Source: a virus (lineage: Duplodnaviria > Heunggongvirae > Uroviricota > Caudoviricetes). From it: DNA of 3,412 nt. The stretch covers positions 1-3,412 of the IMG/VR virus record IMGVR_UViG_2630968808_000007, one strand, 5' to 3'. The notes beneath the pieces are model-generated. The model did no database searches, had not been told where the DNA came from, and saw only the letters and a list, made by a program, of their open reading frames with translations. The first letter of the stretch is position 1. Each line of letters opens with the position of its first letter. Made by a program: the position numbers and the translations under genes. Shown here one piece after another: positions 1 through 3,412 of the stretch.

Positions 1-450
1 TCTGCGTTGCCTGTTGGCGTACCAGTTCCTTGGCCTTCAGCTACGCCGCCGACAGGCTGGCTGAAATGCAACGGGGCTGCTTTTTCGGCTGAAGAATACC
101 CGGAACTGGCAAAGGCTTACCCGACAAATAAATTGCCTGATTTACGCGGTGAATTTATTCGTGGCTGGGATGACGGACGTGGTGTGGATGCCGGGCGACA
201 ATTATTATCTTCACAGGGGGATGCAATAAGAAATATTGAGGGATTCGCAGATGGCGGGATCGGCATGTCTTTTGATGCAATCAGAGGGGCTTTTTACGAT
301 GCAGGAACACGATCAGCGACAATGGCGAATAACACAACTGCTATAGGCAAAACCGATGACCTTGGATTCGACGCCTCTCGTGTCGTGCCAACAGCTAATG
401 AAAACCGTCCACGTAACATCGCCTTTAATTATATTGTGAGGGCTGCATAA
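1..450 (+). CDS. Phage tail fibre protein, C-terminal variable receptor-binding domain (5'-truncated by the window edge; Sv-like half of an invertible segment)
   Basis: The frame is open from position 1 to a TAA at 448-450; the ORF track's M at 7 is a TTG, not a real start. The translation carries tail-fibre C-terminal hallmarks (GWLKCNGAAFSAEEYPELAKAY, LPDLRGEFIRGWDDGRGVDAGR, NENRPRNIAFNYIVRA) as in Mu S / P1 S / P2 H distal domains. The stop overlaps the start of the downstream tfa gene (TAATG). Confidence 0.85.
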   Translation, partial: SALPVGVPVPWPSATPPTGWLKCNGAAFSAEEYPELAKAYPTNKLPDLRGEFIRGWDDGRGVDAGRQLLSSQGDAIRNIEGFADGGIGMSFDAIRGAFYDAGTRSATMANNTTAIGKTDDLGFDASRVVPTANENRPRNIAFNYIVRAA

Positions 451-1043
451 TGAAACCTGTTTTTGATGAAAATGGGCTGGCTACAGTACCGGGTAATATG
501 CGTTGTTTTTATTATGAGGCAGTTACGTATGAATATACTGGCTGGTCTGATGAATATATTAATACTGGCGTAAGTATGCCCGCCTGTTCCACTGGTATTG
601 ACCCGGGCGAATGCATTCCGGGGAAAGTGGCAGTATTTACGGGTAAGGGATGGAGCCATGAAGAAGACCACCGCAATGAGACTGTTTACTCAATCGAAAA
701 TGGCGCAGCTGTTACAGTGGATTATATCGGTGCCATCAAAGACGGTTATGTCACGCTTTCACCGTTAACGCCATACGATAAATGGGATGGTGAGAAATGG
801 GTGACGGATACTGAGGCACAGCATAGTGCCGCAGTAGACGCGGCAGAAGCACAGCGCCAGTCGCTGATTGATGCAGCAATGGCTTCCATTAGTCTGATTC
901 AGCTGAAATTACGGGCCGGACGGAAGTTGACGCAGGCAGAAACAACCAGACTTAACGCTGTGCTGGATTACATTGACGCGGTGACGGCAACAGATACCAG
1001 CACCGCGCCGGATGTCATCTGGCCTGAACTGCCGGAGGCGTAG
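450..1043 (+). CDS. Tail fibre assembly protein (Tfa / Mu U-like chaperone)
   Basis: 197-aa ORF with ATG at 450-452 overlapping the upstream stop by 1 nt and a GAGGG Shine-Dalgarno at 438-442. The C-terminus (LNAVLDYIDAVTATDTSTAPDVIWPELP) is the conserved Tfa C-terminal motif. The position immediately after the fibre variable domain is canonical. Confidence 0.85.
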   Translation: MKPVFDENGLATVPGNMRCFYYEAVTYEYTGWSDEYINTGVSMPACSTGIDPGECIPGKVAVFTGKGWSHEEDHRNETVYSIENGAAVTVDYIGAIKDGYVTLSPLTPYDKWDGEKWVTDTEAQHSAAVDAAEAQRQSLIDAAMASISLIQLKLRAGRKLTQAETTRLNAVLDYIDAVTATDTSTAPDVIWPELPEA

Positions 1044-1455
1044 GCCATTCAATATCTGGTGCACTGGAGGTATCAACCAGCTCCAGTGCATCCAGATAAT
1101 CCAGCCACAAATTATATTGCGCCAGTTCCTCACCTTTCAGGCGACCAATCGCCGCTTTACCAGGCCATTGCTTACTGTTTATGTATTCGTTGACCTGATT
1201 AATCAATTGCTGCTTTTTCAGTTCGGCTGCGGCAATTTGTTCCTCATGAGTTGGCGGTGGAATATCAATCCATGCAGGCATTCCGTCGATGACACCTCTG
1301 TATTTTCCTTCTGGTGCTTCCTTCATAAATTCGGCAGCAACAGTGTCGTCAATTTCGATTCCATCATCGGGCCATTCGCCGGATTCCTGATAAGCGATTT
1401 TAAGCTCCACAGGGAAAAACGCATTTTTATCGGCACTGAAAATATATTTCTGCAT
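1015..1455 (-). CDS. Tail fibre assembly protein, alternative copy (Tfa' / U'-like), convergent with the + strand tfa
   Basis: 146-aa ORF on the minus strand with ATG at 1455-1453. Its C-terminus (LWLDYLDALELVDTSSAPDIEWPTPP) is a paralogous Tfa C-terminal motif, while the N-terminal part diverges from the + strand Tfa. It overlaps that gene tail-to-tail over 1015-1043. Confidence 0.85.
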   Translation of the reverse strand: MQKYIFSADKNAFFPVELKIAYQESGEWPDDGIEIDDTVAAEFMKEAPEGKYRGVIDGMPAWIDIPPPTHEEQIAAAELKKQQLINQVNEYINSKQWPGKAAIGRLKGEELAQYNLWLDYLDALELVDTSSAPDIEWPTPPAVQAR

Positions 1456-1457
1456 TT

Positions 1458-1828
1458 CTACCGTCCTATCGAAATATAACTGAATCTGTATTGCTGTGAG
1501 ATATCACTGGTTGCCACACGCCACGCTGAATTACTGATATGTTCAAAATTTACAGACAAAACCTGCGGGGCAGGATTCGACGGGTCTGACTGAACGGCAT
1601 CAGACATAACACTGACTGAAACCATCGGCTGATTAGGGAATGGTATAGGGAAGTGTCCACTGATAAAGCGGGTTGTGTTTCCTGAAAAAGTGCCAAACTG
1701 AACAATATATCCACCTGGTAGCCTGAACCATCCCGAACCAGAAGCGAATGCTCCCATATCCGGTATCTGATTATCTCCTGTGCCCACATTCCGTTTTGCC
1801 GCTTCTCCCAAACCAATGTTTTTGAGAA
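1458..1828 (-). CDS. Alternative tail fibre C-terminal variable cassette (Sv'-like), promoterless and start-less in this orientation; expressed only after inversion fuses it to the constant fibre N-terminus
   Basis: Open frame on the minus strand ending at the stop at 1460-1458, 2 nt upstream of the tfa' start. It has a Gly/Ser-rich fibre-tip-like composition (GAFASGSGWFRLPGGYIVQFGTFSGNT). The frame runs through the crossover site at 1803-1828, which encodes ILKNIGLGE. The ORF-track extension to 1883 begins with TTG and is unlikely to be a real start. Confidence 0.7.
1803..1828. promoter_or_regulatory. Crossover site (gix/hix/cix/pix-type) for the DNA invertase; right boundary of the invertible segment
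   Basis: TTCTCCCAAACCAATGTTTTTGAGAA is a 12-2-12 imperfect palindrome. It matches the recalled hixL sequence TTCTTGAAAACCAAGGTTTTTGATAA at most positions, including the AAACC / GTTT cores and the central AA. It lies 55 bp upstream of the invertase start and inside the N-terminal end of the silent fibre cassette, as in Mu G and P1 C segments. Confidence 0.7.
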
Positions 1829-1882
1829 TGACCATTCTGCTCACTAGTGGCATGCTTTCTGCTTTTTGCAGGGGATAAAACA

Positions 1883-2443
1883 ATGCTTATTGGTTATGTG
1901 AGAGTGTCAACAAATGACCAGAACACCGCATTACAGAGAAATGCGCTCGATAGCGCAGGATGTGAACTGATTTTTGAAGATAAGATAAGCGGAAAGACCT
2001 CGGAGAGGCCGGGGCTCAAAAAGGTACTCCGTATCTTGTCGGAGGGAGACACGCTGGTGGTCTGGAAACTCGATCGGCTCGGTAGAAGCATGCGGCATCT
2101 TGTCGTTCTGGTGGAGGAGCTGCGAGAGCGGGGCATTAATTTTCGCAGCCTGACCGACAGCATAGACACGTCTACGCCGATGGGCCGATTCTTCTTTCAT
2201 GTTATGGGGGCTTTGGCAGAAATGGAAAGAGAGCTCATTGTTGAACGCACCCGGGCGGGTTTAGCAGCTGCGCGAGCAAAAGGGCGGATCGGCGGTCGCA
2301 GGCCCAAATTAACGGATGAGCAATGGGCGCAGGCAGGGAGATTGATCTCAGCAGGGGAATCTCGCCAGCGTGTGGCAATAATTTACGACGTAGGGGTTTC
2401 AACACTCTACCGAAAATTTCCGGTAGGTAGTGGTAAGACATAA
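1883..2443 (+). CDS. Site-specific DNA invertase, small serine recombinase of the Gin/Cin/Pin/Hin family
   Basis: ATG at 1883 preceded by GGGGA (1871-1875). The N-terminus MLIGYVRVSTNDQNT carries the catalytic Ser, and VVWKLDRLGRS, GINFRSLTDSIDTS, MGRFFFHVMGALAEMERELIVERT and the C-terminal HTH (VAIIYDVGVSTLYRKF) are nearly identical to recalled Gin/Pin sequences. The ORF-track start at 1847 is a GTG and is unlikely. Stop TAA at 2441-2443. The exact family member cannot be assigned from memory. Confidence 0.95.
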   Translation: MLIGYVRVSTNDQNTALQRNALDSAGCELIFEDKISGKTSERPGLKKVLRILSEGDTLVVWKLDRLGRSMRHLVVLVEELRERGINFRSLTDSIDTSTPMGRFFFHVMGALAEMERELIVERTRAGLAAARAKGRIGGRRPKLTDEQWAQAGRLISAGESRQRVAIIYDVGVSTLYRKFPVGSGKT

Positions 2444-2486: not shown

Positions 2487-2753
2487 TTACAGCCCAGCTT
2501 GGCGAACCGTCGGGAATTCAGACACCAGCCACATATCGGCCTCTTCAAACATTTCCTCCAGCATTCGATTCAACTTTTCCCGATCGCTTTTGCTGGCATC
2601 ACTATTCAAGCCGTTCGCCTGCATCGGCTTTACCTTCACTTCGGCATCAGGAAAAATCTTGTGCACCCGCTTTGTTAGCTCAGCTAGGATGATCTCTCCG
2701 GCCCCCTGGAGCCCCTCAACATTTCGCTTGTCATAAACCAGTTCAACAAACAT
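2487..2753 (-). CDS. DinI-family protein (SOS-inducible RecA modulator homolog), 88 aa
   Basis: ATG at 2753-2751 with an AGAGGA Shine-Dalgarno 5-6 nt upstream. The translation MFVELVYDK...ELTKRVHKIFPD...MLEEMFEEADMWLVSE aligns with recalled E. coli DinI (MRIEVTIAK...ELSRRIQYAFPD...ILQETWESADDWFVSE). The ORF-track extension to 3104 would run through the promoter and LexA box and is rejected. A LexA box lies in the promoter. Confidence 0.85.
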   Translation of the reverse strand: MFVELVYDKRNVEGLQGAGEIILAELTKRVHKIFPDAEVKVKPMQANGLNSDASKSDREKLNRMLEEMFEEADMWLVSEFPTVRQAGL

Positions 2754-2776: not shown

Positions 2777-2804
2777 TTGCCTGTGCTTGATCTGTTTTTA
2801 TAAA
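2777..2804 (+). promoter_or_regulatory. Candidate sigma70 promoter for the rightward two-gene operon
   Basis: TTGCCT (2777-2782), a 16-nt spacer, and TATAAA (2799-2804). The LexA box begins 8 bp downstream, where it would block initiation. The assignment is weaker than for the leftward promoter and alternative -10 registers exist. Confidence 0.35.
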
Positions 2805-2831
2805 AATACAACTGTATATGTATACAGTCAA
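2803..2831 (-). promoter_or_regulatory. Candidate sigma70 promoter of the DinI-like gene, with the LexA box in its spacer
   Basis: On the minus strand: -35 TTGACT (plus 2831-2826), a 17-nt spacer, and -10 TATTTT (plus 2808-2803). The LexA box at 2812-2827 fills the spacer and overlaps the -35. Confidence 0.5.
2812..2827. promoter_or_regulatory. LexA operator (SOS box)
   Basis: CTGTATATGTATACAG is a perfect CTGT-N8-ACAG palindrome with an AT-rich centre, matching the consensus TACTGTATATATATACAGTA. It lies in the 99-bp divergent intergenic region between the DinI-like gene and the 2853 operon. Confidence 0.85.
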
Positions 2832-2852: not shown

Positions 2853-3092
2853 ATGCCTCGTCAACCGGATATTCGTGCTGCTTTTATTGCGGCCATACAG
2901 CAAAACCCGAAGGGCTATCTCTGTCTGCATACAGACAAGTTCATCGCTGAACTGCAGGAGAGGCACTGGCATTTCAGCCAGGCGGATGCAAATACATGGA
3001 TCGAGCGATACCAGCCGGACTTCGCCGATAAGACGACAAACGGCAGCGAGAACCGGTACTGGATCCTGCGTAACATGGGGAGGGTTTTCTAA
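2853..3092 (+). CDS. Hypothetical 79-aa protein, first gene of a LexA-controlled operon; function unknown
   Basis: ATG at 2853 with a GAGGG Shine-Dalgarno at 2841-2845 (7-nt spacing). Its stop TAA (3090-3092) overlaps the next gene's ATG (TAATG), indicating translational coupling. I recognise no family; the protein is Trp/His-rich and non-hydrophobic. Confidence 0.6.
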   Translation: MPRQPDIRAAFIAAIQQNPKGYLCLHTDKFIAELQERHWHFSQADANTWIERYQPDFADKTTNGSENRYWILRNMGRVF

Positions 3093-3412
3093 TGGGATTT
3101 CCATCGCCAGCCATGGATTACCAGGAGCAGCGCATGACGATAGATGTTATCTGCGGTGTAGACAACAACTGCCGGGTTATTGAAACTTCATGCGGCTGGG
3201 CCGTTATTAACGTCAGTCTGAAGCCAGAAAGAGGGGATACGTTGCTGGTTAGCATGGATGGGAGAAACCAGTTTGTGAAGCTACTGGGTCAGGCACTGAT
3301 AACGGAAGAGGGTGAGGCGATCGAAGGAGAAGCCTTGAATGATGTTACGGTGCACGGCGTTCTTACACATACGCTTAACCAAGTTAAAGACGATAAATCG
3401 CCTGTAATGTAG
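3092..3412 (+). CDS. UmuD'-like protein (LexA/UmuD S24-peptidase C-domain homolog lacking the N-terminal arm; HumD-like), 106 aa
   Basis: ATG at 3092 with GGAGG at 3079-3083 (8-nt spacing). The N-terminus M-GFPSPAMDYQEQR matches UmuD residues directly after the Cys24-Gly25 cleavage site (GFPSPAADYVEQR, recalled). Further similarity: GDTLLV vs GDLLIV, DGRNQFVKLL vs DGEFTVKKLQ, VTVHGVLTHTL vs LDVFGVVIHVV. The stop TAG falls at 3410-3412, the window end. Confidence 0.75.
   Translation: MGFPSPAMDYQEQRMTIDVICGVDNNCRVIETSCGWAVINVSLKPERGDTLLVSMDGRNQFVKLLGQALITEEGEAIEGEALNDVTVHGVLTHTLNQVKDDKSPVM

What the first reader, a model, noticed from the sequence alone, without database searches (positions are those of the whole stretch)
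3092..3412. Genetically pre-truncated UmuD'-like protein that appears to have lost the catalytic Ser motif
The ORF starts exactly at the position equivalent to the residue after the RecA-stimulated autocleavage site of UmuD (M-GFPSPAMDYQEQR vs UmuD ...LVQC|GFPSPAADYVEQR). It would therefore be made directly in the activated UmuD' form, with no need for RecA*-mediated processing. Phage P1 HumD is the precedent for such a protein. In my by-eye alignment the region corresponding to the UmuD S-G-D-S-M catalytic serine reads ETSCGWAV, and about 14 residues between the GD(L/T)L(I/L)V and DG..(F/T)VK.L blocks seem to be missing. The Lys in the FVKLL block is retained. Lacking the Ser would be tolerable for a protein that never needs to self-cleave, but the internal deletion makes it unclear whether it still forms a UmuD'2-like dimer able to work with UmuC. 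It could instead act as a dominant-negative or RecA*-binding decoy. No umuC-like gene is visible in the window.
Basis: partly seen in the sequence, partly recalled or inferred. Interest (0 to 1): 0.75.

Follow-up and report, generated by a model that had tools for sequence, protein, structure and literature searches.

The report
Minimised phage UmuD'-like (HumD-type) SOS protein
This prophage gene makes a stripped-down relative of the bacterial mutagenesis factor UmuD' that is born already "activated", has lost its whole self-cleavage site, is switched on by DNA damage, and belongs to a widespread but unstudied phage family whose effect on the host's error-prone polymerase is unknown.

Summary
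The ORF at 3092-3412 is real. It encodes a 106-aa member of a conserved phage/prophage family (PHROG 3469) found across Enterobacterales.

Homology and fold:
- A profile-profile comparison links all 106 residues to the P1 HumD / UmuD' family (99.1%, E 7e-19).

What the protein keeps and lacks:
- It starts at the Gly that follows the UmuD cleavage site.
- It keeps the near-invariant N-terminal arm GFPSPAxDYxExR.
- It lacks the 12-residue loop that carries Ser60.
- It has Ala/Val where the catalytic Lys97 aligns. The retained K63 corresponds to K98.
- It has changed the residues UmuD uses to bind the RecA filament and, in a published model, the UmuC C-terminus.

Evidence that it is a working gene:
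- dN/dS is 0.085 against close relatives.
- It forms an operon with a winged-helix 79-aa gene.
- The operon sits behind a perfect LexA box (68 of 80 related loci) and, in this window, diverges from a DinI homologue.
- No umuC lies nearby (0 of 80 loci).
- In other phages the same slot holds a full-length 129-aa HumD.

This is a new variant of a known kind. It is probably a non-catalytic, SOS-induced modulator of host pol V. Whether it activates or blocks pol V is unresolved.

The parts
3092..3412 (+). 106-aa short HumD/UmuD'-like protein (stop codon included); member of PHROG 3469
3095..3133 (+). N-terminal arm G2-R14 (GFPSPAMDYQEQR), equivalent to UmuD G25-R37
   Evidence: G, F, S, P, A and D are invariant in the 32 short-family sequences and conserved in 36 HumD/UmuD sequences; the first Pro is 30 of 32 in the short family. 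Low pLDDT (53-66) fits a flexible arm.
3188..3193 (+). Junction S33/C34 where the 12-residue Ser60 loop of UmuD (S57-D68) is missing; in the model strand 27-31 joins strand 35-40 by a 3-residue turn
   Evidence: Alignments. DSSP of the model.
3275..3280 (+). V62-K63: V62 aligns with catalytic Lys97 of UmuD, K63 with Lys98
   Evidence: Column counts A22/V8 and K26/R4/I2.
3296..3337 (+). Family-specific acidic motif L69-L82 (LITEEGEAIEGEAL), the best conserved part after the arm
   Evidence: Column identities 0.69-1.00, with T71 and G74 invariant. It is absent from HumD and UmuD.
3077..3084 (+). Shine-Dalgarno-like GGGGAGGG, 7 nt before the ATG
   Evidence: Read from the sequence.
2853..3092 (+). 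79-aa upstream partner gene (PHROG 3893, unknown function, winged-helix fold); its stop overlaps the start of the 106-aa ORF (TAATG)
2812..2827 (.). LexA (SOS) box CTGTATATGTATACAG in the divergent intergenic region, 26 nt before the 79-aa ORF
   Evidence: The only match in the window; 0.04 expected by chance. A perfect CTGT-N8-ACAG lies within 300 nt upstream of the first gene of the operon in 68 of 80 loci, starting 33-42 nt before its ATG in nearly all of them.
2803..2831 (-). Sigma-70-like promoter (TTGACT-17-TATTTT) for the DinI-like gene, overlapping the LexA box
   Evidence: This is a consensus match only; the count is no higher than in shuffled sequence.
2487..2753 (-). DinI-family protein (88 aa), divergently transcribed
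   Evidence: Pfam DinI E 3e-23. Annotated 'DinI family protein' in the 99.9% identical E. coli locus. Linked in only 15 of 80 loci.

Best explanation
Shown:
- The ORF is a functional, LexA-controlled prophage gene for a minimised, non-catalytic derivative of the HumD branch of the UmuD' family.
- It has an S24/LexA-type beta-barrel and is made directly in the 'post-cleavage' form.
- The whole Ser60 active-site loop has been excised and the catalytic Lys replaced by Ala/Val.

Inferred:
- The one feature it shares invariantly with UmuD' and HumD is the N-terminal arm. That arm is required for UmuD'-dependent mutagenesis. In the published AlphaFold model of pol V it threads into UmuC next to the active site.
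- The protein is therefore most likely still aimed at the host's UmuC/pol V machinery during the SOS response.
- It has replaced the surfaces that HumD proteins conserve for the RecA-filament groove (Y52, V54, F94, E93) and for docking the UmuC C-terminus (S60, T95, K97, E93).
- It has gained its own invariant acidic motif (LITEDGEAIEGEAL).

My call:
- I consider it a neofunctionalised modulator of pol V rather than a plain UmuD' stand-in.
- It could be an arm-bearing competitor or an altered subunit that engages UmuC, or heterodimerises with UmuD/UmuD', without RecA*-dependent processing. It possibly works together with the co-translated winged-helix 79-aa protein.
- The direction of the effect (block or activation) is not resolved.
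For: Homology and fold.

Loss of the dyad:
- The Ser loop is deleted and K97 aligns with V62 in three alignments.
- None of 32 family members reaches Pfam Peptidase_S24 even at E 0.01. HumD proteins score 29-36 bits and UmuD 105 bits.

Real gene under selection:
- 227 clusters at 90% identity and 346 representative hits.
- 170 confirmed stretches in species-representative genomes, mostly of 104-110 aa.
- dN/dS 0.085 for close pairs, median 0.33.

SOS control:
- LexA box at 2812-2827.
- 68 of 80 loci have a perfect box within 300 nt upstream of the first gene of the operon, nearly all of them 33-42 nt before its ATG, whether that gene is the 79-aa gene or the short gene itself.
- P1 humD has the same divergent LexA-box layout.

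Arm conservation against changed RecA/UmuC-tail positions: column table, read against PMC9926225 and PMC11791011. The latter also cites evidence that armless UmuD' dimerises but is dead for mutagenesis.

Same slot as a full-length HumD in HK140 and E. coli ABWA45.
Against: - No experiment exists for any member, and no paper on this family was found in the searchable library.
- The UmuC contacts come from a computational model, not a solved structure.
- Interchangeability with full-length HumD in the same cassette argues for the same job rather than a new one.
- From memory (Nohmi et al. 1988): Ser60 is dispensable for UmuD' function once cleavage is bypassed. Loss of the dyad alone therefore does not imply loss of pol V activation.
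- The arm also touches RecA in the UmuD-RecA* structure (F26, P29), so UmuC is not its only candidate target.
Confidence: 0.4

Rival explanations
1. Plain minimal UmuD'/HumD equivalent. It dimerises, binds host UmuC and activates pol V for translesion synthesis exactly as P1 HumD does. The deleted loop and changed residues would be dispensable once self-cleavage is not needed.
For: - It occupies the same position, after the same 79-aa gene and LexA box, as a 129-aa HumD in HK140 and E. coli ABWA45.
- The arm is invariant.
- The fold's best match is UmuD'.
- It shares the C-terminal DDxxPVM tail with HumD.
- The HumD family itself mostly has Thr, not Ser, at position 60.
Against: - HumD proteins keep K97 (36 of 36), Y52 (36 of 36), E93 (34 E, 2 D) and F94 (32 of 36) although they never self-cleave. 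These positions therefore matter for HumD function.
- The short family has replaced all of them with other conserved residues (A/V, V/I, R/K, N/T/S) and evolved a new invariant acidic motif.
- NCBIfam HumD scores 33 bits against a cut-off of 120.
Confidence: 0.3
2. LexA-controlled antirepressor or other phage-specific switch. The 79-aa winged-helix protein and/or the S24-fold protein binds a prophage repressor, for example by mimicking a CI-type C-terminal domain, to couple induction to SOS. Precedents are Gifsy GfoA/GftA, 186 Tum and N15 AntC.
For: - LexA-regulated small genes next to a dinI homologue are the known layout of the Gifsy and 186/PSP3 antirepressor loci (PMC3121763).
Against: - The invariant arm is shared with chromosomal UmuD. 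This points to a conserved host target, not to the diverse repressors of the many unrelated phage types that carry the gene.
- DinI is linked in only 15 of 80 loci.
- Similarity to known antirepressors could not be tested because their sequences were not at hand.
Confidence: 0.12
3. RecA*-binding decoy. The protein sits in the RecA filament groove like UmuD or LexA and damps LexA, UmuD or CI cleavage.
For: - UmuD arm residues F26 and P29 contact RecA in the cryo-EM structure, and both are invariant here.
- The gene is co-located with a DinI homologue, which is a RecA-filament binder.
- The protein is acidic (pI 4.5; 6 acidic and no basic residues in 67-86).
Against: - The globular-domain contacts are changed: Y52 to V, V54 to E, F94 to N, and E93 to R/K, which is a charge reversal.
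- In UmuD, alanine substitution of the Y52/V54/F94 pocket residues and charge reversal at D91/E93 strongly reduce RecA-mediated cleavage.
- F18, the fourth pocket residue, is absent from any pre-truncated form.
Confidence: 0.08
4. Decaying remnant of a humD gene with no function.
For: It is shorter than HumD by 23 residues, lacks the active site, is not recognised by Pfam, and is mostly annotated 'hypothetical protein'.
Against: - Length is constant at 104-110 aa in 73 of 80 loci from more than 20 genera.
- The start codon and LexA box are intact.
- dN/dS is 0.085.
- The model is confident and compact.
- Family-specific motifs are invariant.
Confidence: 0.03

Closest known systems
Bacteriophage P1 HumD and its family (NCBIfam NF051876; N15 gp26, phiKO2 gp23, HK140 gp28)
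   Same: - Phage-borne.
- Starts at the Gly after the UmuD cleavage site.
- Invariant GFPSPAxDYxExR arm.
- S24 beta-barrel.
- Acidic C-terminal tail ending in PVM/PVI.
- LexA box upstream, in a divergent intergenic region in both P1 and this window.
- No linked umuC.
- Can sit in the very same cassette slot.
   Different: - 106 aa against 129 aa.
- The 11-12-residue loop that carries Ser/Thr60 is deleted.
- Lys97, invariant in HumD, is Ala/Val here.
- Y52, V54, F94 and E93 equivalents are replaced.
- A new invariant LITEDGEAIEGEAL motif is present.
- It fails the NCBIfam HumD cut-off (33 bits against 120) and Pfam S24.
- HumD's complementation of UmuD' is published (McLenigan et al. 1999, cited). 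Nothing is known for the short form.
E. coli UmuD' (processed UmuD, subunit of DNA polymerase V)
   Same: - Identical arm sequence.
- Same strand order in the model.
- SOS-regulated.
   Different: - Not made by RecA*-stimulated cleavage.
- No Ser60/Lys97.
- RecA-groove residues and the modelled UmuC C-tail docking residues are changed.
- Not in an operon with umuC.
LexA-controlled phage SOS modules containing a DinI homologue (Gifsy dinI-antirepressor-irsA; 186 Tum / PSP3)
   Same: A small prophage operon outside the immunity region, directly repressed by LexA and associated with a DinI homologue.
   Different: - Here DinI is divergent, not co-transcribed, and is only loosely linked (15 of 80 loci).
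- The products are an S24-fold UmuD' relative and a winged-helix protein.
- No antirepressor activity is shown or implied by sequence.

Membership tests
Peptidase S24 (LexA/UmuD/CI self-cleaving family, Pfam PF00717) | Sequence match to the family model above the curated threshold | tested here: not met
   No PF00717 hit for the window protein at E <= 1. None of 32 family members hits at E <= 0.01. Controls: UmuD 104.7 bits, P1 HumD 36.1, ABWA45 HumD 28.9, cut-off 23.3.
Peptidase S24 (LexA/UmuD/CI self-cleaving family, Pfam PF00717) | LexA/signal-peptidase-like beta-barrel fold | tested here: met
   [not shown]
Peptidase S24 (LexA/UmuD/CI self-cleaving family, Pfam PF00717) | Ser nucleophile (UmuD S60) | tested here: not met
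   A 12-residue gap covers UmuD S57-D68 in MAFFT, hhalign and HMMER alignments. The flanking positions S33 and C34 are variable in the family.
Peptidase S24 (LexA/UmuD/CI self-cleaving family, Pfam PF00717) | Lys general base (UmuD K97) | tested here: not met
   The aligned residue is V62; the family column is A22 V8 L1 G1. K63 aligns with K98.
Peptidase S24 (LexA/UmuD/CI self-cleaving family, Pfam PF00717) | Ala/Cys-Gly cleavage site preceded by an N-terminal segment | tested here: not met
   The protein begins M-G. 71 of 80 loci have ATG at this position.
HumD family (NCBIfam NF051876, equivalog) | Score above the curated cut-off over the full length | tested here: not met
   33.3 bits against a cut-off of 120; only residues 1-57 match.
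HumD family (NCBIfam NF051876, equivalog) | Pre-truncated start at the UmuD G25 equivalent, with a conserved arm | tested here: met
HumD family (NCBIfam NF051876, equivalog) | Common ancestry over the whole length | tested here: met
   hhalign 99.1%, E 7e-19, 106 of 106 columns aligned to HumD 1-129. tblastn of a HumD against Klebsiella-phage short forms covers 1-120 at E 7e-8.
HumD family (NCBIfam NF051876, equivalog) | Family-invariant residues Y52, E93, F94, K97 (UmuD numbering) | tested here: not met
   V29, R58, N59 and V62 in the window. The family columns differ consistently.
HumD family (NCBIfam NF051876, equivalog) | Functional replacement of UmuD' in SOS mutagenesis | not testable with these tools
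   Needs genetic complementation.
UmuD' as subunit of pol V (UmuD'2C-RecA-ATP) | N-terminal arm required for mutagenesis | tested here: met
   G, F, S, P, A and D are invariant, the first Pro is 30 of 32, and Y, E and R are largely conserved. The role of the arm is taken from PMC11791011.
UmuD' as subunit of pol V (UmuD'2C-RecA-ATP) | Docking site for the UmuC C-terminus (S60, T95, K97, E93 in a published AlphaFold model) | tested here: not met
   Deleted, Q60, V62 and R58 respectively. The site itself is a model, not an experimental structure.
UmuD' as subunit of pol V (UmuD'2C-RecA-ATP) | Homodimer formation and heterodimer formation with UmuD | not tested
The C-terminal strand and first helix are retained in the model.
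UmuD' as subunit of pol V (UmuD'2C-RecA-ATP) | Genetic linkage to umuC | tested here: not met
   No tblastn hit to E. coli UmuC within 6 kb on either side in any of 80 loci. None lies between the gene and ssrA in the E. coli locus. HumD also lacks such linkage.
LexA (SOS) regulon member | LexA box CTGT-N8-ACAG at the promoter | tested here: met
   Window 2812-2827; 17 of 20 matches to TACTGTATATATATACAGTA. 68 of 80 loci carry a perfect box. LexA binding itself was not tested.
LexA-controlled phage antirepressors (Tum, GfoA/GftA, AntC) | Binds and inactivates a prophage repressor | not testable with these tools
   Only the layout resembles this family.

The most novel reading that the evidence does not exclude
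A widespread family of temperate-phage proteins has reduced UmuD' to its UmuC-inserting arm plus a trimmed barrel. It has discarded the protease site, the RecA-groove contacts and the UmuC-tail dock, and gained a new acidic surface. Together with a winged-helix partner it lets the prophage take over or shut off the host's mutagenic polymerase V during the SOS response, independently of RecA*-gated UmuD processing. It would be a natural separation-of-function allele of UmuD' and a phage-encoded regulator of host mutagenesis.
Probability: 0.3. Interest if true: 0.7.

Novelty: new variant of a known kind. Interest (0 to 1): 0.5.

Why it matters
UmuD' is the switch that turns UmuC into the main SOS mutator, and how it contacts UmuC and RecA is still known only from models.

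A naturally minimised, strongly conserved UmuD' relative that keeps only the arm and the barrel core is a ready-made separation-of-function variant. Testing it would show which UmuD' surfaces are needed to activate or to block pol V.

It would also show whether prophages of clinically important Enterobacterales (E. coli, Klebsiella, Enterobacter) raise or lower their hosts' damage-induced mutation rate. That bears on the evolution of antibiotic resistance under SOS-inducing drugs.

If it turns out to be a plain HumD equivalent, the finding is only a small annotation gain: 'hypothetical protein' would become 'short HumD-type UmuD' homologue, non-peptidase'.

Tried and rejected
- Pfam on the protein and on all 32 aligned family members gave no S24 hit. 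Membership therefore rests on profile-profile and fold evidence.
- PADLOC gave no defence-system match for the short protein, the 79-aa protein or DinI.
- A single-sequence search of the PDB found only the arm (E 0.06). The family profile was needed.
- Longer proteins in the representative search were checked as possible intermediates or fusions. P0280 (187 aa) is a frameshifted read-through of the 79-aa gene into the short gene, so it is not evidence of a fusion. P0250 (UmuD-like pro-arm plus short core) is a single unverified cluster.
- Literature searches for HumD, UmuD-like, DinI and mEp390 found no study of the short family. The McLenigan 1999 HumD paper is not held.
- The simple promoter scan found no canonical sigma-70 match on the + strand upstream of the 79-aa gene. 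The operon promoter is inferred only from the fixed position of the LexA box.
VINVSLKPERGDTLLV matches HumD VVDASLSPCDGSLLV column for column.
- The pseudogene reading was rejected on conservation and dN/dS.
Full report
**Setting.** The window is the right end of a prophage.
- A 99.9% identical copy lies in E. coli strain 1500, next to ssrA. After the ORF in question come one 272-aa hypothetical gene on the other strand and then the tmRNA gene.
- Window 1-2443 holds an invertible tail-fibre cassette: tail-fibre end, two opposed tail-fibre assembly genes, an alternative fibre tip, and a Cin/Pin-type invertase.
- From 2487 onward the layout is: a DinI-family gene on the minus strand (2487-2753; Pfam DinI E 3e-23), a 99-nt intergenic region, a 79-aa ORF (2853-3092), and the 106-aa ORF (3092-3412). 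The 106-aa ORF's ATG overlaps the upstream stop codon (TAATG) and is preceded by GGGGAGGG.

- The protein begins M-GFPSPAMDYQEQR. This aligns without gaps to UmuD G25-R37, immediately after the C24|G25 cleavage bond. My UmuD sequence was checked against MG1655.
- Single-sequence methods see only the arm: BLASTP against a 129-aa HumD-type protein gives E 3e-8 over 18 residues. NCBIfam HumD gives 33 bits against a cut-off of 120, covering residues 1-57. Pfam Peptidase_S24 gives no hit.
- Profile methods see the whole protein. An alignment of 32 diverse family members (A1) matches a HumD/UmuD alignment (A2) with 99.1% probability and E 7e-19 over all 106 columns. It also finds PDB UmuD at E 4.9e-7 over residues 2-97.
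- The protein is therefore a true S24-fold relative of UmuD', closest to the phage HumD branch.

**Catalytic residues and the deletion.** Three independent alignments agree (MAFFT, hhalign, HMMER).
- CRVIETS pairs with UmuD TYFVKAS up to A56. A 12-residue gap then removes S57-D68, which includes the nucleophile Ser60. CGWAVINVSLKPERGDTLLV then pairs with G69-A88.
- In the model, strand 27-31 joins strand 35-40 through a three-residue turn.
Smaller gaps follow the Lys strand.
- In the same alignments V62 sits at the Lys97 position and K63 at Lys98. Across the family, position 62 is Ala or Val in 30 of 32 sequences, and position 63 is K 26, R 4, I 2. No Ser/Lys dyad remains.
- None of the 32 members reaches Pfam S24 even at E 0.01. 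Controls: UmuD 105 bits and HumD proteins 29-36 bits, against a cut-off of 23.3.

**What ordinary HumD proteins look like.**
- The same cassette slot in E. coli ABWA45 and phage HK140 holds a 129-aa protein that is 67% identical to P1 HumD.
- In 35 such proteins the Ser60 position is Thr in 28, Ser in 5 (P1 HumD included), Ala in 1 and Ile in 1.
- Lys97 is invariant in all 36 sequences (35 HumD-type plus UmuD). Y52 is also 36 of 36, E93 is 34 E plus 2 D, and F94 is 32 of 36.
- These are the residues that bind the RecA L2 loop and the basic patch in the UmuD-RecA* cryo-EM structure (PMC9926225).
- Together with S60 and T95, they also hold the UmuC C-terminal carboxylate in a published AlphaFold model of pol V (PMC11791011; UmuD' numbering plus 24).
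- HumD proteins keep them although they never self-cleave. In the short family they are V/I/L, R/K (a charge reversal), N/T/S and A/V. V54 becomes an almost invariant Glu.
- By contrast the arm is invariant or nearly so in all three groups (G, F, P, S, P, A, D, Y, E, R).
- The short family also has its own motif, LIT(E/D)(D/E)GEAIEGEAL at residues 69-82. This is its best conserved stretch after the arm and is absent from HumD and UmuD.
- The protein is acidic, with pI 4.5.

**A family, not a remnant.**
- Numbers and spread: 227 clusters at 90% identity, 346 hits among 50%-identity representatives, 57 phage genomes, and 170 confirmed stretches in species-representative genomes. Most come from Enterobacterales, in more than 20 genera.
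- Length is 104-110 aa in 73 of the 80 loci examined, and 71 start with ATG at the same position.
- Nei-Gojobori dN/dS is 0.085 against the two closest loci. The median is 0.33 over 191 pairs with unsaturated dS.

**Regulation and neighbours.**
- The only CTGT-N8-ACAG in the window is CTGTATATGTATACAG at 2812-2827. Chance expectation is 0.04. It lies 26 nt before the 79-aa ORF and overlaps a promoter-like site for the DinI gene.
- In 68 of 80 loci a perfect box lies within 300 nt upstream of the first gene of the operon. In nearly all of them it starts 33-42 nt before that gene's ATG. That gene is either the 79-aa gene or, where it is absent, the short gene itself. P1 humD has the same divergent LexA-box arrangement.
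- A homologue of the 79-aa gene sits immediately upstream in 54 of 80 loci. DinI is within 6 kb in 15 of 80. UmuC is within 6 kb in none.
- The 79-aa gene also precedes full-length HumD in HK140. In HK225 it stands without either form.

**How it most likely works.**

*Shown:*
- The gene is SOS-box-linked and under purifying selection.
- Its product is a pre-truncated S24-fold protein without a protease site and with an invariant UmuD'-type arm.

*From the literature:*
- Armless UmuD' dimerises but cannot support mutagenesis.
- In the pol V model the arm of one UmuD' inserts beside the UmuC active site.
- Arm residues F26 and P29 also touch RecA in the UmuD-RecA* complex.

*Inferred:*
- The arm's conservation in a protein that is never cleaved implies a conserved host partner, most plausibly UmuC.
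- The coordinated replacement of every HumD-conserved RecA or UmuC-tail residue, plus a new invariant acidic surface, suggests a changed mode of action rather than simple equivalence.
- I therefore favour a non-catalytic modulator of pol V: a competitor or altered subunit that may work with the winged-helix partner.

*Probabilities:*
- Non-catalytic modulator of pol V: about 0.4.
- Plain minimal HumD equivalent: about 0.3. This is supported mainly by the allelic exchange with full-length HumD in the same slot.
- LexA-controlled antirepressor-type function: about 0.12. Layout precedent comes from Gifsy and 186, but the host-type arm argues against a phage-specific target.
- RecA* decoy: about 0.08, disfavoured by the changed groove contacts.
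- Dead remnant: about 0.03, refuted by conservation.

**Comparison and novelty.**
- The family is already catalogued as 'UmuD-like protein' (PHROG 3469). mEp390 gp26 was noted as similar to HumD by its annotators. PGAP calls it 'hypothetical protein'.
- I found no study of it in the searchable literature.
- It fails the tested membership criteria of Peptidase S24 (model score, Ser, Lys, cleavage site). It also fails the HumD equivalog on score and on the invariant residues. It does share their fold, ancestry, arm and regulation.
- I class it as a new variant of a known kind, of moderate interest. It would matter as a natural separation-of-function form of UmuD' and as a possible phage handle on host mutagenesis. 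It would be ordinary if it simply complements umuD'.

**Limits.**
- There was no multimer modelling and no access to model coordinates, so the three-dimensional position of K63 and T32 could not be checked.
- The UmuC contact map is itself a prediction.
- The claim that Ser60 is dispensable in UmuD' rests on my memory of Nohmi et al. 1988, not on a text I could read here.

Noticed in passing
window 1-2443 (right inverted repeat at 1802-1827; left repeat about 75-100 nt upstream of the window, L001 6502-6527): Invertible tail-fibre host-range cassette. It contains a tail-fibre C-end, two opposed tail-fibre assembly genes that overlap at 1015-1043, an alternative fibre tip on the minus strand, and a Cin/Pin/Gin-type serine invertase (1883-2443). 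It is bounded by 26-nt hix/gix-like inverted repeats that are 92% complementary.
   Followed up: partly
window 2853-3092: 79-aa gene of unknown family (PHROG 3893) with a confident winged-helix model. It is translationally coupled to the UmuD'-like gene and found upstream of it in 54 of 80 loci. It also sits upstream of full-length HumD in HK140, and stands alone in HK225. Its function is unknown, and it may be the real partner or regulator in this module.
   Followed up: partly
L002 (phage mEp390) 5355-5591; record positions 20749-20985: The RefSeq annotation of mEp390 lacks the 79-aa gene, although tblastn finds it at 86% identity. It lists a 129-nt ORF on the opposite strand instead. This is probably a mis-annotation.
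   Followed up: no
L003 (E. coli ABWA45) 5455-5694: Here the 79-aa gene carries an internal stop (annotated as a pseudogene) while the downstream full-length HumD gene is intact. HumD therefore does not strictly need it.
   Followed up: no
proteins P0083 and P0088: Mosaic alleles. The N-terminal 65 or so residues are strongly diverged from the window protein, but the last 40 or so residues are identical to it. This suggests recombination inside the gene at the conserved LITEDGEAIEGEAL coding stretch.
   Followed up: no
protein P0250: A 141-aa protein with a UmuD-like cleavable pro-arm (..LFSDSMQC|GFTSPA..) joined to a short-type core that lacks the Ser loop. If real, it could only be processed in trans. 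It is a single cluster and could be a recombinant or an assembly artefact.
   Followed up: no
window 3395-3409 (residues 102-106) and the C-termini of HumD-family proteins (A2): A C-terminal tail ...DDxxPV(M/I) is shared by the HumD family (GEFDDCPVM, nearly invariant) and many short forms. It is absent from UmuD and disordered in the model. It may be a short linear motif, such as a protease or partner recognition signal.
   Followed up: no
loci L006, L069, L075: Hits labelled Geobacteraceae MAG, Chryseobacterium and Bacillota MAG carry near-identical enterobacterial cassettes. This probably reflects contamination or mis-binning rather than a true host range.
   Followed up: no
L001 10168-10986 (downstream of the window, minus strand): A 272-aa hypothetical protein with several hydrophobic segments lies between the UmuD'-like gene and ssrA. 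It is probably prophage cargo at the attachment-site end.
   Followed up: no
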